DNA of 64,000 nt, taken from IMG/VR virus record IMGVR_UViG_3300045988_147738, positions 38,432-102,431 of that record; one strand, 5' to 3'. The stretch's first letter is position 1, and each line of letters opens with the position of its first letter. A program made the translations under genes and the position numbers. This document shows, piece after piece, positions 14,797-40,969 of this stretch. This stretch comes from a virus. The notes under the pieces are model-generated. The model saw only the letters and a program-made list of their open reading frames with translations. It had not been told where the DNA came from and searched no databases.

Positions 14797-17564
14797 AAAA
14801 TAATCCATTGTTAGATACAAATTTTTTAAAACAGTTAGATTTAGAAAATTAGAAAGAAATATTTATTAAAATTATTAGTCTAAATCAAAATGAAGAACCT
14901 ATTGAAAGTATTGAAGGCCGTGCAACAGGAGGATCCATTAATATTGATGGATCCTCCGCAGTTAGACGAACTTGTTCAATTTCATTGGTTGCTGAAGGAG
15001 TTAATATTACTGATGTATATTGGGGATTAACTACTAAATTTTCATTACAAATTGGATTAAGCAATAATATTAATAAAGAATATGAAAAAATTATTTGGTT
15101 CCCACAAGGTATTTATCTAATTACATCATTTAAAACAGATGTCACTACTAATGGATATAAAATTTCTATTTCAGGTAAAGATAAAATTTGTTTATTAAAT
15201 GGTGAAATTAGTGGTAATTTTCCTAATCCAATTGATTTTGCTATTGAATTAGTAGAATATAATTCTAAAACATTAACAGTTGATGCTATGATTACTAAAT
15301 ATAATTTAGTAGAAAATTTACATTGGAAAGAAAATGAAGGAAAACGATATTTAACTACATTAGGTATTTCTTATATAAATGAACTTACTAATGAAGAATC
15401 TGTTGCAGAAATAATTGATGTAAAAGTTGGAAATAAAGTTAGTAAATATAAAAAAGTAAAAAAATCAATTGGATATATTATTAGAGAAATGATTCATCAT
15501 TATGGAAATGAACCATTCCATAATATTTTAATTAAAGATGTAGATAATAAAGGTTTAGAATTATTAAAATATTCAGAGGGTGATTTTTATGCATTTTTAG
15601 ATAAAACTGGAAAATATACTCATCTAGAATTTATTGATACATTAACTAGATATAAAGCTGATACAAATGTTCCAATTAAATTGAGCGATTTAACTGATGG
15701 AGATTTTTCTACCCCTGATAATCTACGGACAAAAATAAAAAATAATATTAGTGATACTGATTATTATTATGTGAATAAAATTAATGGCACTGACGCTGCG
15801 GGTTATCGTTCAGTCGAATTATATTGGCCTTCTAATGATGGTTTAGTTGTAAATGCAGGCGATACAATTACTTCTGTATTAGATAAAATTTGTTCAACGT
15901 TTGGTGAATATGAATATTTTTATAATGTATAGGGATAGTTTGTTTTTTAGAAAAAATAGACTTATATAAATTAGTCTTGGGATAATATTGTAAAGACAGA
16001 AAATAGTGCAAATCCAGATTTAGATTAGGATATTGATAATATTTATAAAGAAATTAAAGGAGAATATAAATATAGTCAATTATATGAAGAAGCCGCGATG
16101 CTAGCCTCTAAAAGTATTTATAATTTTTCTAATAATATTTTAATTTCATCATTTTAGAATACGCCTGATTTTTCTAAAATTAAAAATAATTTTACTATTT
16201 GGGGTAAACGTAAACCAGCATCGACTAACAGCGAAGGTACACCAATTCGTTTGCGTTACGCGATTGATGAAAAGCCTAAGACTTATACCACTTTTGAAGG
16301 AAAAACTTATCGCACTTATGACCCTTTAGAAACGGGTGAATTTGTTAAAACTCCGAATCCACCAGATACATTGCTTGGAGAGCCTCTTGATGAAAATTGG
16401 TGGGATGTGAAAGATTGGGCGGAATTATATCGAATGTTTATTGGAGAATATCCAAATCGAATGTTAAGTGCCTATTATTCAGACAAAGATGGTGTTTTTA
16501 TTGATTTAAATTCATTATATAAATCAGCCACAAATGAAGAATTAATGCAAAAAGTCTATGGTCGTTCTATTGGAAATTATTTTGGCAGATGGATAAATAA
16601 TTGGCAAGATGAAAAATTATATATTTTTGATTTATTACCTGATAATACTATTGGTTATGTAGGACATGGTTCTTATTGCACTCACTATTGGGATGAATGG
16701 TTTGATCCTTTATACCAAAAGGGTGGTAAAGCATATGTATATAAACCATTAATGCCAGGACAAGATAAAAATACAGTATATTATGCTAAATAGAATTGGC
16801 GAGAGCTAATTTATCAAATGGCATTAGATTATCAATTATATGGCCATAATGATAATTATGCAGTAAAATTAGCTTAGTTAAATCCAGAATATCCTAATGG
16901 CAGAACAGGTTATGAAAGTTATTATGCAGATTTTTTAGCTGAAGACGGATGGCGTAGTATATATAATCCAAAGTCAGAAGATTCTAAAAATTTTTTTGTA
17001 GGGAATATGTTGACTGATAAAGAAAAAGTTTATTATGGCTGGAATAGAAATGTTATAAATGATCCAACTCTTTTAAATTTTTGGATTGATTTTGTCGAAG
17101 ATAGTGAAAGTACTATAGGTAAATATTCTGTTCGAGCAATTGGAGATAGGCCGAAAATTGTTAATAATGATGCTATTAGAGCTATTATTTATAGAGATAT
17201 TCCTAATATAATTTATATTACTCCAGAAAAGTATGAACTGCAAAAATAGTAGAATTTATTACAAGATGGATATGATTATTTACCTTTACCAAATATTTAT
17301 GAGAGTAAATTTTCAATTACTACCAAAGGTAAAAGTGCTTATTCTGAACTTAATGATTTATTATATTAGTATGCTTATATGAATGAAAAAATTAATATAA
17401 AAACTATTCCAATATATTATTTAGAGCCAAATAATATTATTACAGTCGATGATAATAATAGTAATATTCATGGAGAATATGTCATTAATAAAATATCATT
17501 ATAGCTAGCGCATAATGGTATAATGACAATTACAGCGACAAAAGCGCCTCCAAGATTATTATAA
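14793..17564 (+). CDS. Tail or baseplate structural protein, 923 aa. Its start overlaps the previous stop (ATGA).
   Basis: ATG at 14793 overlaps the TGA of the upstream gene. Frame 0 is open through fragments 14985, 16251 and 17007 to the TAA at 17562-17564. The N-terminus reads MKNNPLLDTNFLKQLDLENQKEI. Placement suggests baseplate or tail-associated, but this is only positional. Confidence 0.55.
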
Positions 17565-21250: not shown

Positions 21251-22162
21251 ATGCCAAATATTAATTATGTTAAGTTTTAGCGTGGTACATTAAAAGCTTA
21301 TAATTCACAAGTTAATAGAAACTTGATTGATAATAATACTTTATATTTTGTTTATGAATCTGCCGCGGCAACTTCTGGTCAATTATATTTAGGTAAAAAA
21401 TTAATTAGCGGAGTTGGCACTGGAACTTCTGTTACTAAATTATCTGAATTAAAAGATGTTATAGCTACTACTGCTGAAAATGGTTCATTTTTAGTATGTA
21501 ATGCAGAAGGTAAGTGGGAAGCAACTACATTAAATGATGTTGCCTCTTTAATCGCTAATCAATTACAAATTAATGTAAATACTAATACATTTGAATTTGT
21601 TGAAGTAAGTGGTTAGAACCCTGAATTAAATTTATTAGGATTTAATTCTGCTACACAGGGTTCTTATGTTAAAGTAGGCGATGATGGAAAGCTTAAATGG
21701 ATAAAACCAGATAAAGATTTTGATGTTATTGCTTAGGAAGTTGGTAATTTACAAACCACTATTGCAGGTTTAGATACTGTAATTGCTAATAAAATTGCTC
21801 AAGCTAATCACTTAACTTATAAAAAAGTTTCTAGTTTAGATGAAATTAAAGAAGCTAATACCATTTATTTAGTTCCAAAAGAAGGTTCAGAAAATGATGC
21901 ATATACTGAGTATATGTTTATTGATTCTAAAGTTGAACATTTAGGAACATTTAATAATGGTGATTTAAGCGGTTATGTTACTACTGAGTAGTTGCAAGCT
22001 GTTGATGGAAAATTTTAGAATTATGTTACAAAAACTGTATTTAATACAACAGTTGGTAATTTAGATGAATTAAATGATTACACTGAAGGTACTACTATTG
22101 TAAATGAAATTAATAACATTTATGATAGATTAGTATGGAAAGAAATTGAAACAGTTAGTTGA
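21251..22162 (+). CDS. Fibre-like structural protein, 303 aa. It shares an N-terminal module with three downstream genes.
   Basis: AAAGGAG RBS. The frame 2 ORF ends in TGA at 22160-22162. The N-terminus MPNINYVKFQRGTLKAYNSQ...TLYFVYESAAATSGQLYLG is paralogous to the N-termini of the genes at 22190, 23991 and 40970. Confidence 0.6.
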
Positions 22163-22189: not shown

Positions 22190-23848
22190 ATGGCTTTAAA
22201 TGATAAAGTAATGTTTAAACTTGGTACTCAAGCCAAGATTGACCAAATGATAACTAGTAAAACTGGTTATAGTGTTGGTACATTTTATTTAACTAAAGAC
22301 AGTGACCGTCTATATGTTGGTCAAGCTACTGGTCTAAAGTTATTAAATAAAAGTGTTCAAGTTGTTGAGACTGAAGCTGGTTTAGAATCATTAACTGCTA
22401 GTTGGGGTACTGACGCACTATCCCATAAAGATGATCTTGCTTATATCTCTGGTAAAAATATTTTTGCCTATTTTAATGGTACTGGTTGGACTCAAATTAA
22501 TCCTGACCATAATGATCAATTACAGTCAGTTCTTGTTAATGTAGAAGACGCTACCAAAGGCGCAAAAGTAACAACTGAAGTTACAGTTGGTAGTATTGTT
22601 AAATCTGATGCTTTTACTGTTACTGGCGCTAATGGAGCAAAAGTTGAAAGAGTCGATGGTAATAATATTAAAGTAACTGGTGATACTTATACTATGGCAG
22701 TCAATGCTGATAAAACTAATGATGTTGACATTGACTTAACAAGTTCATTAGGACAAACACCCAGTAAAGTACACTTAGTTGGTGGTAATAATGTTACCGT
22801 AAGCAAAGGAACTACTGACAATACTATTAATATTGCTGCTACAGATACTACTCTATCTGAAGGAGTAAGTTCCATTGATAATACCGGTAAATTAACTATT
22901 GAGTTCTCTGATACGGCTGGAAATAATCCTTCTACTAATGTAACTCTTGGAGCTTATTTAGATGACGGATTCCATGCTATTGGTGGTAATACTAATGAAA
23001 CTAAATCTCAATGGCCTGTATATACCAAGAGTCAAGTTGATGATAAATTTAAGACTCTAAATCCTATGCGCTATAGAGGCACATTAGGCTCTTCTGGTCA
23101 GCATAATATTACTACTGATTTTAATTTAGTTGATGGTTTAACTGATGTTAGCTCTGGTGATATGTTCTTAGTTAGCGGTTCTGCTAAATATGGAACAGAC
23201 AAAACAGCAAAGTCTGGCGATATTTTAATTGCTAGCGGCACAGAAAATAATGATGGTGTATTTGACGCTACTCATCCAATTACCTGGAATTTTATTCCTT
23301 CTGGCGATGAATAGGCACTAGATACTCAGTATATATTTACCGTTGATAAGAGCACCAATACTATGACTATTTATAGTAACTTAAATGGTGCTGAGAATAG
23401 TGTCGGTAAGATTCAATTATTAGCAGGTTCTGATATTACACTATCTACTACTACCAATGATACTCCTACTGGTGGCGGGGATAAAAATCAACTCTTAACT
23501 ACTATTGCTCACGCTGCTCTATTTGATGCAGCTAAGAATATTAGTAAGAGTACTGCTAATTTAACCCAAGCTAATAATACTTTTAATGCTATTAAAAATA
23601 TTACTGTTAATAAAAATGGACATGTTACTGCCATTGAGACTGAGACTGTAAATCCAATTACTTATACACCTGGCCCTGGAGCTGTTGATGCTATTGACAA
23701 AGGGGTTAAATTTAGTTATAGTCTTAACGCTGGCGATGAGGCAGTGACTGATGACAATGCTTACTTCAATTTAACTTCAACAACTCTATCTGTTACTGCC
23801 GCAAGTTCTGCAACAGCATCTGTTGAATTACTATGGGGCGAGTTTTAA
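22190..23848 (+). CDS. Abundant-looking structural protein, 552 aa (fibre, spike or major structural candidate). It has only one TAG codon.
   Basis: Strong GGGAGG RBS. Frame 2 is open from 22190 to the TAA at 23846-23848, with a single TAG at 23312. The N-terminus MALNDKVMFKLGTQAKIDQM...GTFYLTKDSDRLYVGQ carries the shared module. The protein is rich in T/S/G/N/V/D, suggesting beta structure. A terminator follows. Confidence 0.65.
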
Positions 23849-23908
23849 TTTAAGGACAATCTATAATAATTATATTCGTGGTTTTTTTAAAAATCAACGA
23901 AGGAATTT

Positions 23909-23942
23909 GGGAGAGGAAAAATTCCTCTCCCATTTTTTTTAT
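23909..23942 (+). terminator. Rho-independent terminator
   Basis: Stem GGGAGAGGAA, loop AAA, stem TTCCTCTCCC, followed by a T9 run. Confidence 0.7.
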
Positions 23943-23990
23943 ATATAATTTTGTTTTATATAAAATTTAAGATAGAAAGGAGATACTTGC

Positions 23991-26900
23991 ATGAGCAATA
24001 AACGATTCATCCCTGTTCGTGGTACTGAAGCTAAATTAGATTTAATGGGTTTTAATGATGGGTATGTTTATTTTGCAGTTGATACTGGTAAAATTTTCAT
24101 AGACTATACTCAAGCTGATGGTACAATGGTATCACGAAAGCTTTTAGGAAGCGGTAGTGGTGGTGGCTCAGGAAGTAATTCTGGTATTTATTATGCCAAT
24201 TATACTCCGACTGATGCTGAAAAATTAGAAGATGAAATCAATATTCCAATCGGAGCTATTGAAGGTGGAGAGTACCCTGAAGAAGATGATTTAATTATCA
24301 ATTTAGGTAATAATTGTTTTTATCGTGTAATAAAAGTTCAGCGAGCATTTCAAAATGTGCTATGTCGTCGTTTAACTGTTGCTGGTGGAGGCGGAGGAGA
24401 TGACCCTAGTTCATTGGCTTCTGACATTGAATTAACTGTAGACTCATTACCTACTGTTAACTTAATTAATGGACGCTCTCAAGAAATAACATTTGTTGCC
24501 ACATCAGCTAAAAATAAAAAGGGTAATTCTTATGACTCTATTCTAACAATTAATTGGAAGTTAGAATATACTGATGATGGCACCAATTATAATCAATATA
24601 ATTCAGGAACATTCCAAGTGCCTGATGGTGAGAAATATGCTTTTGAATTTGGTAAATTGGCCAAAGATGATGCTTCTTCAAGATTAGTATTAGTGGCTAG
24701 CCAAACCAATCATCCAAGCACAGTTACTCGTTTGATAACATTTAAAACTTCTAAGTTAGAATTACAAGAATCAAGTAGTTTTTCTAATTTAAGTTATTTC
24801 GAACCTAGTAAATTAGTATTACAATGTAATGTTAATGGTGCTATGGATAAAATTGTTGAATATTATTTTGACAATGAAGATGAACCATTTTTAAGTGTGC
24901 CCTTAGCCGCCAATTCGGCTACATTATAGACTGTTAATGTTTCACAATATACCCCTGTAGTTAATGGTTACCATAAAGTTTGGATTCGTTTATTCCAATC
25001 GATTAATGGCAAAAAAGGAATCGAAGTTAATCCTTTAATTTTTGAAGTAGCTGTTTATGATGGCCTAGACCCTCAAGCTCCTCCAATTATTTGGTTAGGA
25101 GACTATAAAGATGAATATTATAATTATGACACTATTCAAATTCCTTTCCGTGTTTTTGACCCATAGGCTGAAAACCCAGTAGTGCATTTTAAACGTAATA
25201 ATATTGAACTTTCTTATTCTCCTCAAACAATTACAGATTCTAAGAAATTTGCTATTTTTGAAATTGCTAATCCTGAATTAAATGTAATTAATCACTACAC
25301 TATTACTTGTGGTGATGGAGCTCGTGAGACTACTCGTAAAATTGAAATTCGTGTTGTAAATGACCCGACAAGAATAGACTTTGGTATTTAGAAGCAAGGC
25401 TTCTTAACTTATTTATTAAACACAGTAGGTAGTGGACGTTCTAATTCTGAAACGTTGGCTAAACGCACTACTTTAGTAAATTCTTCTACAGCTCTAGGGG
25501 CTGAACCTTGTGCGGCGACGTTTACTAATTTTAATTGGTATAATAATGGTTGGACTACGGATGAAGATAATAAAACTTGTTTACGTATTAGTAATGGTGC
25601 TAAATTATCTATTCCTATTGGTCGCACTGTATTTTCAAATCCTAGTGGCTCTCAAGCTACTGAGCAGTCTCATAGTATTGAATTAACTTTCAAAATTCGT
25701 AATGTTTAGGATTATTCAAATTTAATTCGTACTATTACTCGTTATAAAAATGATGAAAAATTATATAAAGCATTTTATGATGAAGAAACTGGTAAATTTA
25801 ATACTACATACACCAACTATGATGCATTTTTAGCTTGGTATTTAAAAACTTATGAAGTTGAATTTGTTGATAAAAAAGGTAATAAGCGTAGAATGGAATA
25901 TGATGACTTAGAGTTCAGTCATATTGCCAAGCAAATTAATTTAAGTAATGTTATAGGTAGTTACTCTTCTGGTAATACTAAAGCCGTTACTGGTTTATGC
26001 TTAGGACCATAGGATGCGTTTTTCTCTAATGGTACTGATACCGTAAACGTATCTTATGTAGAAAATAAAATTATTACTTTATCTGTTGTATGTAAATATA
26101 GTAAAGAAAAAATTCAAAATTTAATTTATATTTATTTAAATGGTGTACTAACTAGTGTTGTTAGAAACACTCAAGAAAATGGATTTGTTGTAGAAAATGA
26201 TAAAATTGAATTTAACAGTGATTATTGTGATATTGATTTATATAAGGTCCGAGTATATCGCACTGATTTAAACGTTAATGATATTGTCATGAATTATGCT
26301 GCAGATTTTGAGAATGTAAATATTTACGATCAAAATAAATTAGCAGAAGAAAATACTGCTATTGATGAATTCCAGTTTAGCTATACTAATATGATAAAGT
26401 ATAATAATGAACACCCTGATGCCCCATTAATGCCTTATATTATTTTTGATACTACTAAATTAGAAGATAGTGAAAATAAACTTCCTTATTCTAAAAAGGT
26501 TAAATTAAACGTTGGAGTTGAATTTGTTAACACTCCACTTGAAATGTATTATAATAAAGGTAAATTGGAAGAATTGGCTAAGGCTGATAAATTATTTGGT
26601 GATGGTGCGACAGCAGCTGAAAAACAAAAAGCTGTTGAAACTTATTATAAATATCATTGTCCTTCATTTATTAGTGATAGCGCATCAATGAGCGTCCAAG
26701 GAACTTCATCTGAATTCTATCCTCGTAGAAATTATAAAGTTAAAACTAAAAATAACGATGCGGTTGATGGCGAAAAGCGCGTTAATATTTTCTTAAACCG
26801 CGGTCCATTCAGAGAATAGTATAATGCTGATGTATTAGGTTCTACTCAGAAACCTTATATTTTAAGTACAACATTGGGGCCTCTAGTTGATTCTGCTACT

Positions 26901-29900
26901 GGTCAATTAAAAATTAAATATTATGAAGATGAAAATGGTGAAAAGGAAGTTACATTTAGTGAGACTAATCCTTATAAACCTAATACTTTTTATATTGAAA
27001 ATACTGCTTACGTAAAACGTGGCAATGAAAAAACTCGTCAAAAATATTGGTATTTTAATAATTATACTTGCGGAACTCATAAATTTACTATGAAGATTGA
27101 CTACATGGAATCTTCTGGAACTTATAATATGGGATTTGCAAATATGGTTAAAAATGCTTATTCTAAACATCCATTAGACGATTATAATAATGCAAAAGCA
27201 TTTTAGGTTTTAGACCCTGACAAAACTGTTGAGACTGAAACAACTGAGTATGTTCCTGGAACTACTTATACTTATTATAATCATAAGGGTAATCCGAAAA
27301 CAGCAAGTAATGAAGTCTTAGAAGATAATATTGTGATTACCAGCAAAGAAGATTTTGATTTAGGTCCATACGCATTATATCAAAAATTAATGGCTGAAAA
27401 TCCAACTGTTTATTCAAAATTAAAAGTAGCTGATTCAAGTAATCCTAAATATAATAAATGGTATATTATGAAACCTGGATACAGCGATTTTAAGGTTGAA
27501 AATACTGATGATTATCGTACTTCTGTACGAGGGTTCCGTGTACTTGCATTCCATAAAAAGAAACCAGTCGATGGTAGCACAGAGCCTATTTATCAATTTA
27601 TTGGTATATACAATATGCTTTTAGATAAAGGTTCTGATGAAGTATATGGATTCGCACTTGACAGCACTACTGGTAAAGATCCAAAAGCTAAATTTATAGG
27701 CGATGGTACTAAGAGTATGCCTAAAGTAGCAGAATGTTGGGAGTTTGAAAACAATAGCCGCACCTTCTGCTCATATCGTGACCCACAAGACCGCAAAGAT
27801 TTGAAATTTGATGTATTTAATGCTGATGGTTCTCGTGTATTAAATGCAGTTCAATCTGCCCCTGTGGTAGCAGACTCATTTGAATATCGTTATCATAATG
27901 ACGAAGATATTCTTGATTATATTATGGCTCCTGATGGAGAATGTAAAAAAGACCCAACATTAACATTCTCTAAGGATGATATTACATTAAATCAAGAAAA
28001 TCGCGCTCAGCATTTATTGAAAGATTATTCTAATTGGGAACGCGCTGTAGCTTGGGTTTGGAGTACTTGTACTGAAAAAGTTGTATCAAATGGTACTTAT
28101 AAAATTTGTGATGTTGGTGAAGAGTTATTTGATAGTAATAAACATTATATTATGACAACTAATCCATTAACTTCTGAATAGATTTATACCTTAGCTGAAG
28201 AATATATAGAAGGCACTACTTATTATAAAAAGAATCCTGACTATAATCCTAATCAAGAAAATAGTCATGAATATATTGTTGCTTATGTTGGAACAGTATT
28301 ATTTAGTGCTATTAAAACTAAATTATATACTGGTGAAATTGATAAAAATAATAATATTACTTATGTTCCTTGTTATAGTACTGATACATTTAACCCCGAT
28401 AAACGTTATTATACTTTGGAATCTTATAGCGATGAAGAGTTAGATACAAAGGCTGATAGATTAGTTGTTTTATGTAAAGATGAAACATTTGATGCAAGTA
28501 AAACATATTATAATTATGATGGAAATGCTAAATGCGGTAAAGCAGTGACTAAAGCTACTGTAACTGCTGAAACTTATGAGCCAAATAAATATTATATTGG
28601 AACCACTATTATTTATGGTGACCGCTCTTATAAATATGATACACAAGAGTATCGTGGTGATAAATTTACTTATGAATTAAGTGACCACTTCGATAAAGAA
28701 TATATGGCTACATATTTTGTTATGACAGAAATTTTTGAATGTTATGACTCTCGTGGTAAAAACTGCATGATGGCTTCTTGGGGTCCTCAAAAGAAAGGCG
28801 GAGACTATATTTGGTATCCAATTTTCTATGATATTGATACTCAATTAGGTATTAATAATACTGGTATCCCTTCATTTGAATATAATGTTGATGCTACTGA
28901 AGATGGTAACTATTCTACTTCTGATAGTGTTTTATGGAATAACTTCTATAAATATTTTAAAACTGGTTTAATTATCCCTAAATATAGACATTTACGTGGT
29001 ATTACTACTGATGTATTTGATTCTAATTTAAAACAACCACCTTTAAAAACTGTTGATCGTATTGAGTCATATTATTTAACTGATTATAATATAACAAATA
29101 ACTTAGCTGACTTGGGCACACGTCCATTAGTAGCAGTTAATTTAGATGAATATTATAAATATATCACTATTACGAATGATGCTTCTTACTTAGATGGTAC
29201 TACTGGACATATTAGTAGTGATACAACTGGTGTATATACTGTTGATACTAATGGTACTTATTTCTATGCTTTACAAGGAAATAGAAGTCTATCTCGTCAA
29301 CAGTTCCTATCTAACCGTTTAGAGTATATTGACTCTTGGTTAAATGAAGGTAACTATCAACGTGGTGGTGCAAACCGCATTCGTGGTCGTGTTGCTGCGA
29401 ACAATAAAAATAAAACTTCAGATAAATGGATTGAAACTGCTAGCGAGCCTTATTTCAAAGATGAAAGCACTTTAACTAAAAATCATTTATTTGATGCTGA
29501 ATATTGGATGACATTAACTCCAGCCCACTCTTCTTATGTTACTCTTGGTGATGACAATGAAGCCTATCCTTCTCGTAAATATGATGGTGTTCATGCACTA
29601 AGATTTAATATTGATTCTATTGAAAATGGTGTCCGTAAGAGTGAAAATTATCCTGAACAATTACTATATGTTTATGGTATTAATCAAATGAAAGACCTTG
29701 GCGATATGAGTAATCTATATTGGCAAGAGTTTGAAATTTCTGGTGATGCTACTAAATTAACTAGTTTGAAATTAGGATATGATGGTTTGGATGAAAATGG
29801 AGAGCGTTGGCATAATGACAATGTTAACCAATTCAGTATTCCTGCCAGCTCTTCTGATAGTAAAGGCATGCCCTTATTAAAAGAAGTAAATATGAGTAAT

Positions 29901-32165
29901 ATTCAATTTAATGCTGCTTCTCCTATATTAGATTTAACCAGTTGTGAAAAATTAGAGAATTTCCGTGCTACTGGTTCTAATTTAATTAATGTCTAGTTTG
30001 CTAAAGGCGTCGCATTAAATACTGTATATTTACCTACTAGTATTACAAATCTTGAATTAGTTGAAGCTAATTTATTAAAGAATGTAATCACTGAAGATGA
30101 ATATGAGAATCCTATCCGTGATGATGAAGGTAATTTACATGCTAATCCTGGTTTATATCTCCAAGGTTTCTTTGATAAAACCTCAACTGGAGATAAGGGC
30201 GATACAGTAATTGCTTCTCTAAATATTGCTGGTGGTGGCTTAGGCTATGATAGTTATAAACTATTAAAACAATATTATGCTATCCGCAGTCAATAGACTA
30301 ATACTTCTCAAATTTCTATGACCGATGTTAATTGGTGTCCATATGTTTAGATGACTGTTGATGATGAACGTAATCCATCTACTATTTATTATGTGGATAA
30401 TGGACATTATGGACTAGAACCTTATACTTATACTAATTTTGATGCATGGACTATTAAAGTTGAAAATGGTGAAATTTATCGTAAGGATGAAACAATTCCA
30501 GAAGATAAAATAAATCAAATTACTGATTTAGCTATGTTTAAAGAATTTATTAGTGATAAAAAATGGGTTAAAAATTCTAGTAAAAATATTCCTGATATCT
30601 CTGGTATTATTTATATTAATAATACAGAAGTTATTAAAGAATCTGAATTACGTAATATTATTCAAGTCGCTTATCCTGATTTAACAATTTTCTGTGCAAA
30701 CGTTGAATAGGGATATACTGCTAGATTTGTAATTATGAATGAAGATGAAGGTAATGACGGTCGTTATCAGTTAATTGGCTCTATGACTTTAAAAGATGGC
30801 GAAACTTGGTTTGCTGATCCTATTGATACATTTGGTGATGTTAGTGAGAAAAAGCCGAATCATGATTTCTATGGTTGGGCATTGACAAATTCTGCTAGCG
30901 CTGATATTCTTATTAATATTGATAAAAGTATCAATAAATGGAATGAACAAACTCTTGATAATAATATTCATACTTATACATTCTATGCTATTTGTCCTAT
31001 TCACAAATGGAGTGTTAAATATTATTATAAAGATAGTACATTAATTGAAGAGAAAAAAATCCCTCATGGTAATTATGCTGTAATGTCTACTATTATTCCT
31101 TGGAAAGATGATAGTGATTTACCATTGGAATAGACCTATAAATTCTTAGGATATAATCGTTCTGCTACTTCTAATACAGTTATGAAATTAGAAGAATATA
31201 TGATTACTGAAGATACTACTTTCTATGCCGTATTTGATTCTAATCCTATAAGTGTTTATGATGATATCCATACTGAATATTTTGAGCCTACTACTCAAGA
31301 ATATAATTCACTATCTTCTCCATCTTCTTGGATATTTAGCGATCCAACAGAAGGTTTTAATAGTAAATGGTCTGTAATGAGTGATGGTATTGTTTTAGGT
31401 TTATGCAAAAAAGTTAAAGGTAAATTGACAGTTCCTGCATTTTATGAATACAATGGTAAAAAATTAAAAGTTATTGGTATTGATGCTTCATTTAGTTCTC
31501 CTGGTGATGTTACTAATAGTAACCAAGCAACGCCAAATGCTAAAACGATTGGTGGTAATACTATTGTAGCAACTTGTTATGGAGAAGATTTAACTCATGT
31601 ATTCTTCGAGAAGTATACTGATAATGATGGTAATTAGAAATGTAATATTAGAAAATTTAATATCGCTACATTCTCTCATTCTTATGGTTTAAAATGGGTA
31701 GAATTCCCTGAAGGCTTACGAGTAATTGATGCTTACTGTTTTGCTTTAAATGGCGATCGTGATAAAAAATTAGTTGGTTCTTTAGAAAATGCTAATATTA
31801 GTGGAACAATTACTGAAATAGGTTAGAGCGGATTTAAAAATAGTTTTAGTCCTAAAGTTGAGACATTAATTATTGGTCCTTCTGTGAGCTATATTGATGT
31901 TCAAGGTATTGATTTCTGGTCTAATTCAGATTTGAATAAAGGATTAACTGGTGGTATTAATAAAATTATTATTGGTACTCCAGAAGAAAAATCTAAATTA
32001 TATACTTAGAAAAAGCTCGATTATGGTTCAACAGGTATTAGAGGATATAGAACCAATGCTGATCGTAAGATTAATAGTATTGATTGGTATACTACATTAT
32101 CTCGTGATGATACTATTTCAGTCTTTGGTAGCGGTATTGATACCAGTACGGTAAATTATTTATAA
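23991..32165 (+). CDS. Giant fibre or receptor-binding-type protein, 2724 aa. It has the shared N-terminal module and C-terminal BspA-type leucine-rich repeats.
   Basis: AAAGGAG RBS, then ATG at 23991. Frame 0 was hand-verified across all eleven ORF-track fragments (25182, 25455, 26289, 26874, 27333, 28416, 30351, 30735, 31182 and others) with only TAG triplets until the TAA at 32163-32165. N-terminus: MSNKRFIPVRGTEAKLDLMGFNDGYVYFAVDTGKIFIDY. The C-terminal region near 31640-32160 has IG..AF...IxIPxSV-type repeats. Confidence 0.6.
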
Positions 32166-32180: not shown

Positions 32181-32378
32181 ATGACTAAAATTGTGATGTA
32201 TGAATACTTAGGCACAAATGGAACTATTCTTTCTCCCGTTCATTTAGAAGATATATATTATATCAGAAAACTACGTTTAATTGCTGATGTGAATAAACGT
32301 TTGACAAAAAATGATAAAGATTATTGTCAAGCAATAGTTATTCCAGAAGAAGAATTAGATTAGTGGAAAGAGGTTTAA
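32181..32378 (+). CDS. Small protein, 65 aa
   Basis: AAGGAGGAG RBS 8 nt upstream. The ORF reads through one TAG to the TAA at 32376-32378. Confidence 0.4.
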
Positions 32379-32490: not shown

Positions 32491-34461
32491 ATGATTACAA
32501 AGTATAAAGACTCTGTTAAATTAGCTTATTAGAAATTGTATGAAGACATTAATAAAGCTAGTAATGGGGAAATCCAAATTGATAACCTTGAGAGCTTTTT
32601 TGGTAACATACAAGAAATTAGTAAGTTAGATGAAAAGTTTTTAAGACTTCCTTTGGATGAGCCTTTATTTGAAATTGATGCTGATAGTCGTAAAATTACA
32701 GTTCCTTCAAATTTTGCTACTAATGGGTTATCAGTTCAAGGCGATCATTTAGCTGAAACTGTTTTCTTTAGTATTGATAGATATTTTGATTATAAAGATT
32801 TAAATACTTGTAATATTCGTATTAATTGGAAAATTGGTGAGGCTTCTGGCCAATCTATCAATTTCTCCAAAAGCACAGACGCTGAGCCTGGTAAAATTAT
32901 TTTTGGTTGGCCCGTAGCTAAGGATTTAACTGGCAAAAGTGGTACACTTAGTTTTGCTGTTGAATTTTATAATGAGCATAATGGTAATGTTACATATAGT
33001 TTAAATACTCTAATTTCTACCATTAATATTAAAGAAGGTTTAGCATTAATTGAGCCTACCGTAATTAATGTTAATGACGATATTCTGAATATGCTTCAAA
33101 ATAGTGCATTTGGTGAGGGAGATGCAGAAGTCCCTGACTTAAAATGGTTAACTAATGGTTTAGTGTTATCTCCTGAAGATACTGTAACATTTAAAGTTAT
33201 TAATTTAGCTGGTAATGCTACTGATGCTGGATTGGATACTCAAAAGTTATCTTCTGTTCCTGTAAAATTATATGCTCGTGCGCAAGCAGGCGCAGCTGAT
33301 ATTAAATATAGTACTCCTGCAGAACGAGATGACCCTGTTGATGAATATATTCTTGTATCTAAAAAAGATAATGATGGAAATCGTATTAAGTTAGCAGAAG
33401 ATGGAATTTATTACGTAAAAACTAGTGATGGTACTGCTTATCAATTAGCCGAAGCAGATGATATTTTAACTTGGAATAATCCTGATATTATTTCTCCTAA
33501 TAAAAGTGAAATTTATGCTCGCTATACTACTATTATGGTAGAAAAGGCAGGAGAGTATTATGTAAATGCTCAAGGAGTAGTATTTGAAACCGAGAAAGAT
33601 GAAGAAGGACATGTAATAAAACGTAAAATCGGTCAAGGGCCATTAGAAACAACTCCATTCGTTATTTGTCCTGAGCCTGATGCTCCAGACACTATTTCTA
33701 TTAGTTCTGACCATGCTGATTTAACTGGTACAGGATATTCTATTGATTTAGAATTTGCAGATTCTACAGCGTTTTTAACTGATGGAGCTGTAGTTTTAGT
33801 AGCTAAAGCTTCTGGGTATGATAATAAAGATGCTTATGAAGCGCCTGCTGAAGGTATTGAACCAAAAGCGTTAATTCAATACATTTGGTATAAAGAAGGT
33901 TCTGAACAGCCTATTTCTACATCTAAGTGGGTACGTTCTAATGTAGAAGGTTCACTTGAAATTTCTGAGGAAGGTAAATATACTGTTGGTATTAAATCTT
34001 TCTTAAATGGTCATACTAGTGTGGATGAAGTAAAATCTAATCCTTATATTGTATCTCCATTAGCATCTAAAATTAATAATGATATTGCATTTAGTGGATT
34101 AACTCGTAAAAATGGTCAATATTGGATTAATTTAAATAGATATACTGGTGATTCTGATAGAAATGCTACTAAAGAATTTAATATTACATACACTCTTAAT
34201 GGTAATTATAGTGATGAAGTTATTTGTACTTTATTTGTTCGTGAAGATGGTGAAGATGAAGGTTCATCTACTATTAGCCCAGTTACTTCTGCTTCTGGAG
34301 TAAAAATCGTTGTTAAAGATATTGAAGGTGGTAAACACATTACTTTAAGTTCTGGAGCAATTGATAATAAAGAAGGAAATTATTTCATTCGTTTGACTAA
34401 TAAATATAATGGAAGCGCTTATTCAGCAGATAGCGATACATTTTATATTAATATTAACTAA
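32491..34461 (+). CDS. Structural protein, 656 aa (receptor-binding or baseplate-type candidate)
   Basis: ATG at 32491, 45 nt upstream of the ORF-track start and in the same frame, with a GAAAGGAAGG RBS. One TAG lies near the N-terminus. TAA stop at 34459-34461. The N-terminal domain is paralogous to the next gene. Confidence 0.55.
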
Positions 34462-34490: not shown

Positions 34491-35099
34491 ATGATTACTA
34501 ATTATCAAGATTATGAGAATAAGCTTTGGTCCATTGATAAATAGATGCGAACTTCCAAAGCCATTCTCCTTCCAACTCCACCTAAAGAAGAATTAATCCC
34601 TATCGATTTAAATGAACGTAAAATAAAAGTGCCTAAGTCCTTCATTATCGTCTCTCAGGACCATTCGGCTGAGACTTTATACTTTACATTTGATCGATAT
34701 TTTGATGGCATGGATTTATCTAATACTTGCTGTATCATTCAATTCCAAAATGCAAAAGGTGAAGCTTATTATTATGTAGTACCTTATATGGATATTACTA
34801 CTGATAATGTAAATCAAAAAATTATTATGCCTTGGGTAATTCAAAATGCCGTTACTAAATATGCTGGTACTGTAAAATTTGCTATTAAATTTTTTAAATT
34901 GAATGCTGCAGGACATTTAATGTATGAATTAAATACATTAGTTGCTGAAGCTATTGTAGAACAAGGTTAGAATTGGGATTTAGATAATATCTCTCAAGAA
35001 GAATTTGTTTTTGATAAAGCATTTATTTAGGCAATTCATGATTTAGAGCAAGCACATCAGAAAGGTACATTTGCTTTAGAGTGGATTGATAATTTTTAA
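34491..35099 (+). CDS. Paralog of the N-terminal domain of the preceding gene, 202 aa
   Basis: AAAGGAG RBS. MITNYQDYENKLW... parallels MITKYKDSVKLAY.... The shared core is KIxVPxxF...QxDHxAETxxFxxDRYFDxxDLxxxxC. The ORF reads through TAGs at 34968 and 35028 to the TAA at 35097-35099. Confidence 0.55.
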
Positions 35100-35151: not shown

Positions 35152-35229
35152 GGGTAAATATAAATAATATTTTGATGTAAATTTTTATAATAAATGTATA
35201 TAATTTACAAAGAGGAAAGGAGTTATAAA

Positions 35230-36897
35230 ATGCTTAAAAAAGGCGATATAATTACTCTTGACTTAGGTGATGGATATGGTAATAGAAAATATCGTATTTT
35301 AAAAATAGATGGCCCTATAGCTGAAGTTTTAGGTTTATTTGATTTAAATTATGGACAAGTAATACCTTACACTAAAGATGTATCTCACACAATTACAATT
35401 GGTAATATTACTTTCCAAAATTATAATAACAATGAAATTGATCAATTTATAAATAATGAATGGTATAATGATCATTTATCCAATAAAGCAAAATCAGCAA
35501 TTTAGCCATAGTTATTTAATCAAGATGTTTGGTATTTTACTATTAACGGTTATTTACACAATGGTTCTCCTAAATATAATGGCGCTTATAGTAATGGTAG
35601 TTATCAAATTAGTAATGCTGGTATATTTTCTACTATTGGACCTAAATATATTCGCATCCCAGGAGTCCAAGATATTTTAGATTATTTTGCAGATAAAGAT
35701 TTAAGAGTCGATCCTGAGGGTATATTTTCTAGTAAAAATATTTGGAAAATGTTTTGGGATCAAGATAAGGGCAACTCTGAAATGATGTGGCTGTCTTCTA
35801 GTTCTGCAAATGATTCTACAAAAGTTGGATTTATTGATGGTTCTACTGGATTAGTAAGTATGCAAGGAACTGCTACTTATATAGGTACAGTTCATCCAAT
35901 ATTTACTATTGATTTAACTCAATTTTTACCTTTAGAATTTAAACAGTATATTTCTCCTTATACAAATACAGTTATTTTACAAGATGATGCATTAAATTTA
36001 TTAATGCGTATGACAAAATGTTATCCTATTGCGGGAGATGGTACTGGTATTACTTTGGTTCCTACTCCAGATGATTAGCATATTCAAATATAGAATGCTA
36101 TAAAAATTTATTCAGTCTTAAGTGATGGAACGGCTGAAGAAAAAGAAAAGCATCCAGGATGTATTTGCATTTGGGATACTTCAGCTAGCAAAAATAATAA
36201 ACAATATATTTAGGCTGGTTCATTATTAGATTTTTATACAAGTGAATTATCATCTGGCCTTAAAGGAAAAGACATAAAAGCTAATCAATATGGCTCTTTT
36301 ATTCTTATTAAAAATAAAGATTATAAAAATCCTATTGTCGTTCCTATTAAAGGATTTGACAGCCAAGGAAATTTAATTTTACCAGGAAAAAAAATTCAAT
36401 CTGCTATAATTGAATCTACTGGAGCTATTACGGCCACTGGTAATATTACTTCAAGTGCTATTATCACAGGGAAAAAAGTGCGTGGTGCAGTATTTAATGA
36501 TTATGCTGAGTATAGAGAATCTTATATTAAAGAGCCTGGCCGTTGTGTAATTGAAACTGGTTATGGAGATTTAGAATTGTCAACTAAACGTTTACAATTG
36601 GGCGGCAATATTATTTCAGATACATTTGGTTTCTCTATTGGCGAAACAGATAAGGCACAAACTCCTATTGCTGTTTGTGGTAGAGTATTAGCTTATCCTG
36701 ATGAAAATAAAGAATTATATAAGCCAGGAGCGGCTGTGTGCAGTGGTCCAAATGGAACTGTGTCATTAATGACTCGTGAAGAAATTAAAGAATGGCCTGA
36801 TGCAATAATTGGGTATGTAAGTGAAATTCCTTATTATGATACTTGGGGAACTGATAATATTAAAATAAATAATAGAATTTGGATTAAAATAAAATAA
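35230..36897 (+). CDS. Structural protein, 555 aa. Its C-terminal domain of about 140 aa is shared with the tail fibre at 40970-43693.
   Basis: AGGAAAGGAG RBS, then ATG at 35230. The ORF-track ATG at 35194 lies inside the promoter-like TATAAT region. Frame 1 was verified through fragments 35749 and 36478 to the TAA at 36895-36897. The C-terminus ...AVFNDYAEYRE...DTFGFSIGETDKAQTPIAVCGRVLAYP...CSGPNGTVSLMT...RIWIKIK is paralogous to the C-terminus of the 40970 gene. Confidence 0.6.
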
Positions 36898-38328: not shown

Positions 38329-38357
38329 TTGACATTTATAATTTTTTATGGTATACT
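38329..38357 (+). promoter_or_regulatory. Near-consensus sigma70-type promoter driving the Cys-rich / radical-SAM cassette
   Basis: TTGACA (38329-38334), exact 17-nt spacer, TATACT (38352-38357). An AAAGGAG RBS and the ATG at 38384 follow. Confidence 0.55.
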
Positions 38358-38383
38358 TAAATTATATGAAAGGAGATTTGCGA

Positions 38384-39160
38384 ATGGCAGCGACTGATTT
38401 TTCTTCTTTATTTGCTGGAGAAAAAATAAAAAAAGCAGATTTAATTTAGTTAAAACAAGAAATACGTGAAATGATATTAAAACGTATGTATAATATTAAT
38501 ATTTCACAATATGGTTCTAGTTTATATGATTATACTGATTCTTAGAAAGATTTAACACTTCAAGATGAAGAGATTATTAATGATTATTTTAATAAGATTT
38601 TAGAGCCTATGCAAGCCATTAATCCTACTAAATTAGGATTTAACGAAAAATATGATGCCACCTCTAAAAAAACAACTCTTTTCAAATAGGATGAAGCTAT
38701 TCCAAATTTAAAAGAATTAATTTCATTTTTTTAGATTTGCCAAGCTGAAAAAAATCAAAATAAATTAGATATTAGTAAGAGTAATTGTTTAAATCAATGT
38801 ACTGGCATGTGCGTTAACTTATGTGCTATTGGATGTACTGCACGTTGTGCTAGTAGTTGTTCTGGAGACTGTGAAGGTCGAACTTGCCAAAGTGGTTGTG
38901 ATGCAGGTTCAGGAGGCTCCACTCCAGACCCTGATCCTACACCACCCCCTAGTGGAGGAGGCGGCGGTGGGTGTCCTTGTACTGGAAATTGCACGGGAAG
39001 CTGTAATATTGCTTGCACAACTACTTGTCACGGTGGATGCCATGGAGGATGCTCTGGGTATGCTTGCAGAAATGATTGTAATAACACATGCTCTGGCAAC
39101 TGTGGTCGTAGCACTTGTACGGATATATGTAATGGTGGTACATAGGGCTCTATGCATTAA
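38384..39160 (+). CDS. Cys-rich repeat protein, 258 aa. A roughly 140-aa N-terminal region with 4 TAG codons is followed by a roughly 115-aa C-terminal CxxxC-repeat region. Candidate substrate of the radical-SAM maturase.
   Basis: Frame 2 was hand-verified from 38384 to 38807, and on to the TAA at 39158-39160. The C-terminus reads CTGMCVNLCAIGCTARCASSCSGDCEGRTCQSGCDAGSGG...PPPSGGGGGGCPCTGNCTGSCNIACTTTCHGGCHGGCSGYACRNDCNNTCSGNCGRSTCTDICNGGT. The surrounding ORF-track entries 38794, 38823 and 38909 are GC-rich artefacts of this region. Confidence 0.6.
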
Positions 39161-39193: not shown

Positions 39194-39472
39194 ATGATTA
39201 AAAAAGTTCAAATTCCTCAAGAAATTATTTTAGAGGTTCAACGATTATGGTTTGAATATCAATCTAATTTAAATATTTTAGGTTATTTAATGACTTAGAA
39301 TGATATTAATAAAGAATTATTAGCAGAATATAATTAGGATACTAAAATTCGATTTACTGAATGTGAAATGTATAAACAAAAAATAGCAGATTTATATAAC
39401 CCCTTTGATTTTAATTGTCAATATATTTTTGATTTTGATAATAGTTTAATTCAATATAGTAAAAATGATTAA
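39194..39472 (+). CDS. Small cassette protein, 92 aa, translationally coupled to the maturase gene
   Basis: AAAGGAG RBS. Two in-frame TAGs. The TAA stop at 39470-39472 overlaps the ATG at 39465 of the next gene. Confidence 0.45.
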
Positions 39473-40823
39473 AAGAAATAAAATTCAAGAACATTCAGAA
39501 ATAATTCATAATTTATATAAAGAGTTATATCCTAACGCTAATAATATTTTATGTCCTTCAATTACATTTCAAGTAACAGACGATTGTTGTTGTAACTGTA
39601 GCTATTGTTATCAAGGAAATAAAAATAAACATTATATGACTCCTGAAACTGCTATACAAATTGTTGATTATTTATTTGATCTATATGAGAAAAATGATAT
39701 TAATAATTTGATTAATAAAAATACAGCAGGTATTATATTAGAATTTATTGGTGGAGAACCATTGATGAATATTGATGCTATTGATGCGGCTTGTACTCAT
39801 TTTTTAAATTATTGTTTAATTCATAATCATCCTTGGCTACGAACTTTTAGAATTTCAATGATCTCTAATGGAAAATATTATTTTGATTCAAAAGTTCAAG
39901 ATTTTTTAAAACGTTTTCATAATTTTATTTCTTTTGGTATTACTTTAGATGGCCCAGAAGATATACACGACAAATGTCGTAAATATTTTGATGGAACAGG
40001 TAATTTTAAAGATGCTTTTGCAGCATTAAAATACCATAATCAGCATTATAATTAGATTAGAACCACCAAAGTCACTATTGCTCCAGAAAATTTATTAGAG
40101 ATAAATAAATTAATTGATTTCTTTATAAATGAAGCTGGCGCTACTGATATTTTTATGAATCCTGTATTTGAAGCAGAGTGGACTAATGAAGAAGCTTCTA
40201 TTTATTATTAGGAATTAAAAAAAATAGCAGATAAAATGTTAAATGTTAATCAATCAAATGAATTAATTAATAATATAGTATTTGCTGATAATATTGGATA
40301 CCCATTAGAGGATACTGATACTTTAAATTGGTGCGGTGGTACTGGCGCAATGATGAGTTTTGATTATAAAGGGAAAATTTACCCTTGTATTCGATATATG
40401 GAATCATCATTGGGGAAAGAAAGAGAGCCTATTATAATTGGTTCTATTAATACAAATGATAATAATGAAAAATATTTAAAGAATTTAGAAAATTTAAAAA
40501 AAATTACTCGACAATCTCAATCTACAGAAGAATGCTTAACTTGTCCAATTGCTGCTGGATGCGCTTGGTGTTCTGGGTGGAATTATTAGTTATACGGCAC
40601 ACCCAATAAACGCTGTACTTATATTTGCCCAATGCATAAAGCTCGTGTCTTAGCAAATGTTTATTATTGGAACAAGCTTTATAAGATTAAAAATCAAGAT
40701 AAAGTATTTGAGTTAAATCTTCCAAAAGAAGAGTGTTTAAAATTTATTAATGAAAATGAATATAATATGTTGTTAGAATTAATTCAAAAATAGAAGGACA
40801 AAATAAATCAAATAGATAATTAA
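39465..40823 (+). CDS. Radical SAM enzyme with a C-terminal SPASM/twitch-type Cys cluster, 452 aa (peptide or protein maturase family)
   Basis: CxxxCxxC in DDCCCNCSYCYQG near the N-terminus. C-terminal WCGGTGAMMSFDYKGKIYPCIRYM...CLTCPIAAGCAWCSGWNY. Frame 0 was verified through TAGs at 40053, 40209, 40587 and 40791 to the TAA at 40821-40823. Confidence 0.75.
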
Positions 40824-40889
40824 CTCTTTCAAAAATATATATGAAAGAGTAAGATACCTTTCAAAATATTATAATTTTATTTATTTTTA

Positions 40890-40935: not shown

Positions 40936-40969
40936 TTTAAACTTTTTTTCAGAGAAGGGAGTTTAGTTA

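What the first reader, a model, noticed from the sequence alone, without database searches (positions are those of the whole stretch)
23991..32165. 2724-aa receptor-binding-type giant protein with a fibre anchor module and BspA-type LRRs
- Frame 0 is continuous over 8.2 kb with about 16 TAGs and a TAA stop.
- It starts with the shared fibre N-terminal module.
- It ends with a block of IG..AF/IxIP.SV-type leucine-rich repeats near 31640-32160.
- Farther upstream it has LxxLxL-type LRR-like segments, near 29700-30100.
- BspA-type LRRs are cell-surface binding modules, so this looks like an unusually large host-recognition protein.
Basis: partly seen in the sequence, partly recalled or inferred. 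Interest (0 to 1): 0.6.

Follow-up and report, generated by a model that had tools for sequence, protein, structure and literature searches.

The report
Giant phage tail protein hiding kinase

Summary
Window 23991-32165 (+) is a single 2,724-codon ORF with 16 in-frame TAG, no TGA and one terminal TAA (chance about 1e-76). A non-recoded relative encodes the same protein as one uninterrupted ORF and has CAA (Gln) where the window has TAG at a near-invariant Gln column.

Giant LamG-CotH-LRR phage proteins are already described as DGR targets, but nobody has studied their function. This one is a non-DGR variant tipped with a BspA-type LRR. No function was tested; receptor binding and kinase activity are inferred.

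The parts
23908..23932 (+). Intrinsic terminator (11-bp stem, T-run) that ends the preceding fibre gene. The giant gene therefore starts a new unit.
   Evidence: sequence
23976..23982 (+). Shine-Dalgarno sequence AAAGGAG, 8 nt before the ATG
   Evidence: read directly from the sequence
23991..32165 (+). Single CDS of 2,724 codons plus TAA, with 16 in-frame TAG read as Gln
23991..24155 (+). N-terminal motif (aa 1-55, F.P.RGT.A.L...G.VYF..DTGK.), shared weakly with genes 40889-43693 and 22190-23848. Proposed virion-attachment module (inferred). It is followed by Gly/Ser linkers at aa 53-62 and 131-136.
   Evidence: absent from gp353 and the Hankyphage target
24408..25430 (+). Region aa 140-480, not modelled. 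It overlaps a match to PHROG 24896 (function unknown); by eye the sequence looks beta-rich, but no tool assessed its secondary structure.
   Evidence: phrog_24896, aa 266-585, 3.6e-19
25488..26360 (+). LamG / concanavalin-A-like lectin domain (about aa 500-790), assigned through relatives
   Evidence: BLASTP of giant 661-786 to gp353 443-596 and of 510-574 to Hankyphage 695-748. Laminin_G_3 scores above threshold in gp353 and the Hankyphage target and matches 4 of 19 distant members.
26628..29570 (+). CotH-type atypical protein-kinase fold (about aa 880-1860) with large lineage-variable insertions (aa 951-1000, 1101-1150, 1400-1540)
26694..26750 (+). N-lobe motif VQGTSSEFYPRRNYKVKTK (aa 902-920), largely invariant in the family. 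It aligns with gp353 WQGTSSKNYPVKNWTIKLR and, by eye, with CotH YRGAHIREFEKKSYHVMFY.
28743..28763 (+). Catalytic loop YDSRGKN (aa 1585-1591). D1586 and N1591 correspond by motif to B. subtilis CotH D228 and N233.
   Evidence: invariant
28824..28850 (+). Metal-binding motif FYDIDTQLG (aa 1612-1620). D1614 and D1616 correspond by motif to CotH D251 and D253.
   Evidence: invariant
29694..30161 (+). Classical leucine-rich repeat solenoid (aa 1902-2057)
   Evidence: LRR_8 in 3 of 18 relatives
30216..30695 (+). Alpha/beta domain of unknown function (aa 2076-2235), modelled with high confidence
30717..31235 (+). Two Listeria-Bacteroides (InlB B-repeat / Flg_new) domains (aa 2243-2415)
31386..32159 (+). 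BspA-type leucine-rich repeat domain (aa 2466-2723), the most variable module of the family
32181..32378 (+). Conserved 65-aa ORF with its own GGAGG, 18 nt after the giant's stop. It sits in the same place in two relatives, including the non-recoded one. Possible partner or chaperone (inferred).

Best explanation
The region is one late gene of a large gut phage (GC 30%) that reads TAG as glutamine. Its host is probably a low-GC Bacillota or Mollicutes-like bacterium. The product is a modular giant protein of the tail module.

Proposed arrangement: a short N-terminal motif, shared with two other fibre genes, attaches it to the virion (inferred). A LamG-like lectin domain and a CotH-type kinase fold form the conserved body. 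The distal end carries classical LRRs, an alpha/beta domain, two InlB-type B-repeats and a hypervariable BspA-type LRR that recognises a host surface ligand (inferred from fold, position and variability).

The kinase keeps the counterparts of the two aspartates that are essential in Bacillus CotH, and this region is the most conserved part of the protein. I therefore expect it to be an active phosphotransferase. My preferred guess is that it works inside the infected cell, where ATP is available, by phosphorylating the protein itself or partner tail proteins during assembly, as CotH does for spore-coat proteins.

Because the gene has 16 TAG codons, it can only be made once TAG suppression is active.

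What is shown: the ORF, the recoding, the folds, the homologies and the conservation pattern. What is inferred: virion location, ligand binding, kinase activity and its substrate.
For: Single gene and recoding. More than 120 full-length homologues exist. Relative L001 has 0 TAG in 2,672 codons and carries CAA at the window's TAG573. L002 carries CAA at TAG573 and TAG674.

Tail context: tape measure and tail-protein PHROG matches upstream. In Hankyphage the homologue directly follows the 'minor tail protein'.

Binding end.

Variability gradient: catalytic lobe 0.66 mean identity, BspA LRR 0.18.

Module swap: the C-terminus is a DGR-diversified lectin in Hankyphage and a BspA LRR here.
Against: There is no proteomic or structural evidence that this protein, or any relative, is in the virion. 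Nothing in the sequence marks a trimeric fibre: no tool detected coiled-coil or collagen-like stretches.

The N-terminal 'anchor' is statistically weak and no domain library recognises it.

The link to CotH cannot be detected by direct sequence comparison: hhalign probability 0.2%, no phmmer signal, no Pfam CotH hit on the window protein. The mapping of catalytic residues rests on motif alignment and the order of secondary-structure elements, not on a superposition I could inspect.

A kinase on an extracellular particle has no obvious ATP supply, so the proposed role in assembly is a guess.
Confidence: 0.6

Rival explanations
1. It is a host-manipulating effector rather than a structural adhesin. 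The kinase phosphorylates host proteins, for example in division, dormancy or sporulation pathways, and the LamG, LRR and BspA modules select the substrate.
For: The catalytic motif is the best-conserved part of the protein. Roux et al. proposed exactly this role for the DGR-targeted CotH-like phage proteins (bioRxiv 10.1101/2020.04.01.020958). No signature of a trimeric fibre was found.
Against: The gene lies inside the tail module, between fibre-like genes. It is rich in TAG like the other late structural genes, whereas most replication genes have none. In Hankyphage the homologue follows the minor tail protein and is treated as the tail fibre. BspA-type LRRs and B-repeats are typical of extracellular surface proteins.
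Confidence: 0.15
2. It is a virion decoration that binds the animal host's mucus or epithelium, not the bacterial receptor. This would keep the phage in the mucus layer, as proposed in the 'bacteriophage adherence to mucus' model.
For: The closest solved folds for the distal modules include proteins described as binding animal tissue or located on pathogen surfaces: InlB B-repeat, PcpA and TpLRR. Benler et al. suggested mucus adherence for the Hankyphage target (PMC6199706). Relatives come from gut and rumen metagenomes.
Against: The extreme divergence of the BspA LRR between related phages (18% identity) fits tracking of diverse bacterial receptors better than binding of conserved mucins. Many BspA-type LRR proteins come from gut commensals and have no known animal ligand. 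The gene lies in the tail module, not the head module.
Confidence: 0.12
3. The kinase fold is catalytically dead and serves only as a scaffold or binding surface, as proposed for fungal CotH invasins (this comparison is from my own knowledge). The protein would then be a pure adhesin.
For: Direct sequence comparison with CotH fails. Large insertions interrupt the fold. The counterpart of the nucleotide-binding N-lobe residues could not be verified.
Against: D1586, N1591, D1614 and D1616 are invariant across the aligned relatives, which are 24-99% identical to their reference sequences. They match the residues whose mutation inactivates CotH. Dead kinases usually lose these residues (from my own knowledge).
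Confidence: 0.1
4. It is an artefact: a row of separate short genes or a decayed pseudogene that only looks continuous when TAG is ignored.
For: Under the standard code the frame breaks into 17 pieces. A public catalogue holds a relative as separate fragments (Siphoviridae sp. ctxMM9: 469, 145 and 324 aa).
Against: There is no TAA or TGA in 2,724 codons (P about 1e-76). A non-recoded relative has the same protein as one ORF without TAG. TAG aligns with a CAA-encoded Gln at near-invariant columns. AlphaFold models that span several TAG sites are confident.
Confidence: 0.01

Closest known systems
Hankyphage (Bacteroides phage p00, BK010646.1) DGR target protein and the related 'category f1' / 'PC_00012' / 'domain group 3' DGR variable proteins (PMC5758913; bioRxiv 10.1101/2020.04.01.020958; bioRxiv 10.1101/2024.11.15.621889)
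   Same: Giant size (2,245 aa against 2,724 aa). Location in the tail module. A LamG-like domain followed by a CotH-type kinase core, with the same D-x4-N and D-x-D motifs (BLASTP 4e-21 over giant aa 1544-2023). LRR-containing distal part. A specialised ligand-binding module at the extreme C-terminus. Function untested.
   Different: Here the C-terminus is two B-repeats plus a BspA-type LRR, not a C-type lectin. No template/variable repeat pair touches the gene in this window (I did not search for a reverse-transcriptase gene). The N-terminus is unrelated. The phage is a large TAG-recoded phage with a DnaE polymerase, not a 43-kb transposable Bacteroides prophage.
Bacillus phage G gp353 (YP_009015656.1, 2,055 aa)
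   Same: Colinear LamG, CotH and LRR architecture. It is the best sequence link to the giant (26% identity over 489 columns, E 1.8e-23). It passes Pfam thresholds for CotH, Laminin_G_3 and an LRR family, and has a weak LRR_5 match.
   Different: Different N-terminus. No B-repeats were detected. It lies among non-tail genes (metallophosphoesterase, diguanylate cyclase, nucleases) in a 498-kb genome. Standard genetic code.
Bacillus CotH spore-coat kinase (PDB 5JD9/5JDA; Pfam PF08757)
   Different: CotH is a stand-alone 360-aa cytoplasmic enzyme of sporulating cells. Here the fold is spread over about 1,000 aa with three large insertions, shares only 11% identity, and is embedded in a 2,724-aa multidomain phage protein. 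Substrates are unknown.
BspA-type LRR surface proteins (Pfam LRR_5; TpLRR 6mlx, BACOVA_04585 4fs7, PcpA 4cp6) and Listeria internalin B
   Different: Those are bacterial cell-surface or secreted proteins with signal peptides or wall anchors. By inspection, this protein has no signal peptide and is encoded by a phage. The window's own copy scores below Pfam's threshold.

Membership tests
CotH kinase family (Pfam PF08757) | Match to the Pfam CotH model above the gathering score | tested here: not met
   No CotH hit on the window protein at E<=1, nor on 18 close relatives at E<=0.05. Three of 19 distant members hit weakly (best 1.2e-4). The homologue gp353 passes (60.3 bits against 23.8). Membership by sequence is therefore only transitive.
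CotH kinase family (Pfam PF08757) | CotH-type atypical protein-kinase fold | tested here: met
CotH kinase family (Pfam PF08757) | Catalytic Asp (B. subtilis D228) with downstream Asn, and metal-binding Asp (D251) | tested here: met
   YD1586SRGKN1591 and FYD1614ID1616 align by motif with NYD228GFVHN233 and PWD251YD253. Spacing is 28 against 23 residues. The residues are invariant in the family and aligned through gp353. The mapping is by motif, not by inspected superposition.
CotH kinase family (Pfam PF08757) | ATP-dependent Ser/Thr phosphotransfer activity | not testable with these tools
   Needs a biochemical assay.
BspA-type LRR (Pfam PF13306 LRR_5) | Match to LRR_5 above the gathering score | tested here: not met
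   Window protein: 17.8 bits against 27.7, E 0.0031, aa 2554-2635. All 18 relatives scanned match at E<=0.05, best 1.4e-17.
BspA-type LRR (Pfam PF13306 LRR_5) | BspA-type LRR fold | tested here: met
Giant LamG-CotH DGR variable proteins of phages (Wu 2018 category f1; Roux PC_00012; Macadangdang domain group 3) | More than 2,000 aa with CotH-like and LamG/carbohydrate-binding motifs, in a phage structural context | tested here: met
   Direct homology to the Hankyphage target at 4e-21.
Giant LamG-CotH DGR variable proteins of phages (Wu 2018 category f1; Roux PC_00012; Macadangdang domain group 3) | C-terminal C-type-lectin variable repeat with a nearby template repeat and reverse transcriptase | tested here: not met
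   No direct repeat involves the 3' end of the gene anywhere in the 64-kb window. The C-terminus is a BspA LRR. I did not search the window systematically for a reverse-transcriptase gene, and a DGR elsewhere in the genome cannot be excluded.
Phage receptor-binding protein / tail fibre | Encoded in the tail morphogenesis module | tested here: met
   Tape measure at 280-4749 and tail protein at 14793-17564 upstream. Fibre-like genes on both sides. The Hankyphage homologue is adjacent to the minor tail protein.
Phage receptor-binding protein / tail fibre | Present in the virion and needed for adsorption to the host | not testable with these tools
   No proteomic or genetic data exist for this family. 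PMC12135933 calls the Hankyphage protein a 'putative tail fiber'.
Genetic code 15 (TAG = Gln) phage gene | In-frame TAG at positions that are Gln, encoded by CAA/CAG, in relatives that use the standard code | tested here: met
   TAG573 corresponds to CAA in L001 (standard code) and in L002. TAG674 corresponds to CAA in L002. Gln is found in 119 of 120 and 115 of 120 relatives at these columns. No suppressor tRNA is present in the window.

The most novel reading that the evidence does not exclude
The phage particle carries an active CotH-type kinase at the business end of its tail. On contact with the host, or during assembly, it phosphorylates either the host's surface receptor or wall polymer, or the phage's own fibres. 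Phosphorylation would then be a step in adsorption or in arming the tail, a mechanism not known for any virus. The BspA-LRR, or in relatives the DGR-lectin tip, would position the enzyme on its target.
Probability: 0.12. Interest if true: 0.85.

Novelty: new variant of a known kind. Interest (0 to 1): 0.5.

Why it matters
Giant phage proteins that combine a lectin, a CotH-like kinase and a specificity module have been noticed three times as targets of diversity-generating retroelements, and each time were set aside as unstudied.

This locus shows that the same body plan is widespread outside DGR phages: 1,555 cluster representatives match the core profile. It also shows that the C-terminal module is exchangeable (hypermutated lectin or BspA-type LRR), and that the kinase catalytic motif, not the binding tip, is what selection preserves most strongly. 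The open question therefore shifts from 'what does the tip bind' to 'why does a tail protein need a kinase'.

It also points to tractable systems: Bacillus phage G gp353 has a cultured host, and Hankyphage is induced in the laboratory. On the practical side, standard-code annotation breaks these genes into fragments (the Siphoviridae sp. ctxMM9 entries), so they are under-counted in phage catalogues.

Tried and rejected
- Megablast of the gene against 50,697 phage records: no match.
- phmmer of the whole protein against PDB sequences: nothing at E<=1.
- Pfam on the window protein: only a sub-threshold LRR_5 hit.
- PHROGs: two families of unknown function.
- hhalign of the trimmed core alignment against the B. 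cereus CotH sequence: probability 0.2%, uninformative.
- phmmer of B. cereus CotH against all 263 collected family members: no signal.
- Pfam Mtd_N, or any other domain, for the N-terminal motif of the giant and neighbouring fibre genes: none at E<=1. Only a 'faint' precomputed Mtd_N hit exists on the upstream gene of a relative. I therefore dropped my initial idea that the N-terminus is an Mtd/HylP-type module.
- DGR hypothesis for this locus: no template/variable-type repeat.
- Suppressor tRNA: none in the window or in eight related loci.
- Homology of the small downstream ORF to the 64-codon ORF after the Hankyphage target: none.
The models are therefore of P0001, which is 99% identical (30 substitutions).
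- The paper by Nguyen et al. 2016 on the CotH structure is not held, so N-lobe residue assignments could not be checked.
Full report
**1. The observation**

Window 23991-32165 (+) is an ATG-initiated frame of 2,724 sense codons. It has exactly 16 TAG, no TGA and a single terminal TAA; the nearest upstream in-frame TAA is at 23961. At the region's composition (A 0.345, T 0.345, G 0.176, C 0.134), the chance of avoiding TAA and TGA for 2,724 codons is about 1e-76. The other two frames carry 111 and 472 such stops. TAG occurs 16 times against 57 expected from composition, as suits a rare sense codon.

Treating TAG as sense raises the total ORF length in the window from 9,224 to 20,592 aa. All long + strand genes from 280 to 45442 contain in-frame TAGs. 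Several replication genes on the - strand contain none, including the DnaE-type polymerase (54967-58938) and the ribonucleotide reductase-like gene (52049-54298).

A strong terminator (23908-23932) and an AAAGGAG ribosome-binding site precede the start codon.

**2. One gene, TAG = Gln**

More than 120 full-length homologues of 2,430-2,870 aa (34-99% identity) exist on metagenomic contigs up to 238 kb. The closest, P0001, differs at 30 residues and has Gln at all 16 TAG sites.

The decisive control is relative P0110 on an NCBI assembly contig (L001). It translates under the standard code and has no TAG in 2,672 codons. Another relative (L002) has 17 in-frame TAGs at mostly different positions.

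At column 573, Gln is found in 119 of 120 relatives. There the window has TAG, and both L001 and L002 have CAA. At column 674 (Gln in 115 of 120), L002 has CAA.

The 'separate genes' and 'overlooked stop' refutations therefore fail. No suppressor tRNA lies in the window or in the fetched parts of related contigs.

**3. Genome context**

The polymerase is about 39% identical to those of SPbeta-like Bacillus phages and Enterococcus phages. Relatives of the giant sit on 160-175-kb contigs binned with Mollicutes, Tenericutes, Erysipelotrichaceae and Clostridia MAGs. Together with the 30% GC, this suggests a low-GC Bacillota-type host; this is inference.

Upstream lie a tape-measure protein (280-4749) and a tail protein (14793-17564). 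Several fibre-like genes flank the giant.

**4.

*N-terminus.* BLASTP finds no paralogy. A profile of the family's first 55 residues detects gene 40889-43693 at aa 31-83, which is probably its true N-terminus (E 2e-6). It detects gene 22190-23848 weakly (E 1.4e-3) and does not detect 21251-22162. No Pfam family matches. The motif is absent from the more distant homologues gp353 and the Hankyphage target. So it is a real but short, lineage-specific motif. A role as a virion anchor is plausible but untested.

*C-terminus.* The window protein scores below threshold on LRR_5 (17.8 bits against 27.7). All 18 relatives scanned match LRR_5 (best 1.4e-17). Three match Flg_new and three match LRR_8. 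The family profile hits solved BspA-type LRR proteins at 2e-23.

From the model's strand pattern I place the modules as follows:

| Module | Residues | Window nt |
|---|---|---|
| Classical LRR | aa 1902-2057 | 29694-30161 |
| Alpha/beta domain | aa 2076-2235 | 30216-30695 |
| Two B-repeats | aa 2243-2415 | 30717-31235 |
| BspA LRR | aa 2466-2723 | 31386-32159 |

**5.

Conservation along the family peaks at aa 1551-1650 (79-89% identity), not at the ends. No sequence library recognises this region.

Sequence evidence arrives through intermediates:
- The catalytic lobe matches Bacillus phage G gp353 (tblastn 3e-18) and 22 Bacteroides phage records, mostly Hankyphage-type (1e-11).
- gp353 passes Pfam's curated thresholds for CotH (60.3 bits against 23.8, aa 640-977), Laminin_G_3 and an LRR family.
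- The giant aligns colinearly with gp353's LamG (E 0.003), its N-lobe motif (E 0.005) and its catalytic lobe plus LRR (E 1.8e-23).
- Among 19 more distant members of the giant's own family, Pfam finds CotH in 3, Laminin_G_3 in 4 and LRR_5 in 17.

*Catalytic residues.* In B. subtilis CotH, D228Q and D251A abolish activity (PMC7821199). These residues lie in NYD228GFVHN233 and PWD251YD253ATWG. The giant has CYD1586SRGKN1591 and FYD1614ID1616TQLG. gp353 has VDNLGKN...FYDVDSLYG, inside its Pfam CotH match. The Hankyphage target has VDQRAKN...YYDGDTQMG. These residues are invariant in every alignment I made, including the distant set. In the model they follow a helix-loop-strand-strand-loop order that fits a kinase catalytic loop and metal-binding loop.

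Direct profile-sequence comparison with CotH fails, and I could not inspect a superposition. The residue mapping is therefore a well-supported inference, not a demonstration.

**6. What is already known**

In Bacteroides phage p00 (Hankyphage, BK010646.1), the homologous 2,245-codon ORF follows the minor tail protein. It carries the DGR variable repeat at its 3' end, followed by the template repeat and a reverse transcriptase.

- A 2025 study calls it the putative tail fibre (PMC12135933).
- Wu et al. described about 2,000-aa DGR targets with weak CotH and Laminin_G_3 motifs (PMC5758913).
- Roux et al. described a 2,284-aa viral target with a CotH-like kinase (bioRxiv 10.1101/2020.04.01.020958).
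- Benler et al. called such proteins 'currently unstudied' (PMC8008677).
- Macadangdang et al. described variable proteins over 2,000 aa with CotH active-site motifs, carbohydrate-binding motifs and LRRs (bioRxiv 10.1101/2024.11.15.621889).

The viral structure library also holds crAss-like and other gut-phage proteins annotated as CotH or spore-coat-like. In addition it holds three fragments (38-73% identical) of a close relative that standard-code annotation has broken up.

The core profile finds 1,555 cluster representatives at E<=1e-3, mostly 2,200-2,700 aa. The body plan is therefore known and common, but functionally unexplored.

**7. How this one differs**

No template/variable-type repeat touches the gene in the 64-kb window. 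The C-terminus is B-repeats plus a BspA LRR rather than a C-type lectin. The N-terminus is unrelated to those of gp353 and Hankyphage.

Among 109 relatives below 60% identity, mean identity per module is:

| Module | Mean identity |
|---|---|
| Catalytic lobe | 0.66 |
| Kinase N-lobe part | 0.56 |
| Classical LRR | 0.55 |
| LamG-like | 0.50 |
| N-terminal motif | 0.42 |
| B-repeats | 0.32 |
| BspA LRR | 0.18 |

The tip that is hypermutated by a DGR in one lineage is replaced here by a module that diverges fastest by ordinary evolution. This is the strongest, though indirect, argument that the C-terminus is the specificity determinant.

**8. Mechanism**

The most likely reading is a tail-borne adhesin or receptor-binding protein. 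Its variable BspA-LRR tip recognises a host surface ligand, and its conserved body contains an active CotH-type kinase (confidence 0.6 for the whole reading; the substrate is unknown). I favour action during assembly in the ATP-containing cytoplasm, by analogy with CotH-driven patterning of the spore coat (PMC7821199). That step is speculative.

The rivals are a host-directed effector kinase, a mucus-adherence decoration, a dead-kinase scaffold, and an artefact (refuted).

**9. Verdict**

The gene is real and its boundaries are correct. The most interesting feature is the hidden kinase. In novelty terms, this is a non-DGR variant, tipped with a BspA-type LRR, of a giant phage protein type that is already described but has not been studied.

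Noticed in passing
window 32181-32378 (+): A 65-aa ORF (MTKIVMYEYLGTNGTILSPVHLEDIYYIRK...) with its own GGAGG and one in-frame TAG starts 18 nt after the giant's stop. It is conserved at the same position in relatives L001 (18031-18240, standard code) and L002 (18053-18250). It may be a dedicated partner or chaperone of the giant. It is not similar to the 64-codon ORF after the Hankyphage target.
   Followed up: partly
window 43715-45442 (+): A 575-aa protein with a strong ALK/LTK glycine-rich domain match (PF12810, 8e-45) followed by three Listeria-Bacteroides repeats (Flg_new, 7e-19). This is an unusual domain to find in a phage tail module.
   Followed up: no
window 38348-39160 (+) and 39465-40823 (+): A protein whose C-terminal 130 aa or so is extremely Cys-rich (repeated C-x3-C) is followed directly by a radical-SAM / 4Fe-4S enzyme (PF04055 3e-6, Fer4_12 1.2e-4). 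This looks like a maturase and substrate pair inside the structural module.
   Followed up: no
window 36580-36705 and 43373-43498; genes 35194-36897 and 40889-43693: The two genes share a C-terminal module of 138 aa (57% identical; DNA repeat 71% identical). This suggests a common C-terminal assembly or processing domain on two different fibre proteins.
   Followed up: no
window 32491-34461 and 34491-35099 (+): Adjacent paralogues (38% identity over 138 aa), both matching PHROG 25888 (function unknown), directly downstream of the giant. The same pair of gene sizes is conserved in relatives L001 and L002.
   Followed up: no
whole window: TAG use follows the gene modules. Every long + strand (late or structural) gene from 280 to 45442 has 1-45 in-frame TAGs. 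Seven of the - strand genes have none, including DnaE polymerase 54967-58938, 52049-54298, 49393-50459 and 50985-51530. This fits recoding as a switch for late genes. No suppressor tRNA is in the window.
   Followed up: partly
BFVD entries A0A8S5T6D1, A0A8S5T6R9 and A0A8S5T622 (Siphoviridae sp. ctxMM9): Three separate UniProt proteins (469, 145 and 324 aa; 38-73% identical to parts of the giant's core) appear to be fragments of one recoded homologue, split by standard-code gene calling.
   Followed up: no
window 40889-40969: The mechanical ORF 40889-43693 probably starts at the internal ATG at 40970 (MALFKINKG...), because the shared N-terminal motif begins there. The 27 codons before it look like read-in.
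   Followed up: no
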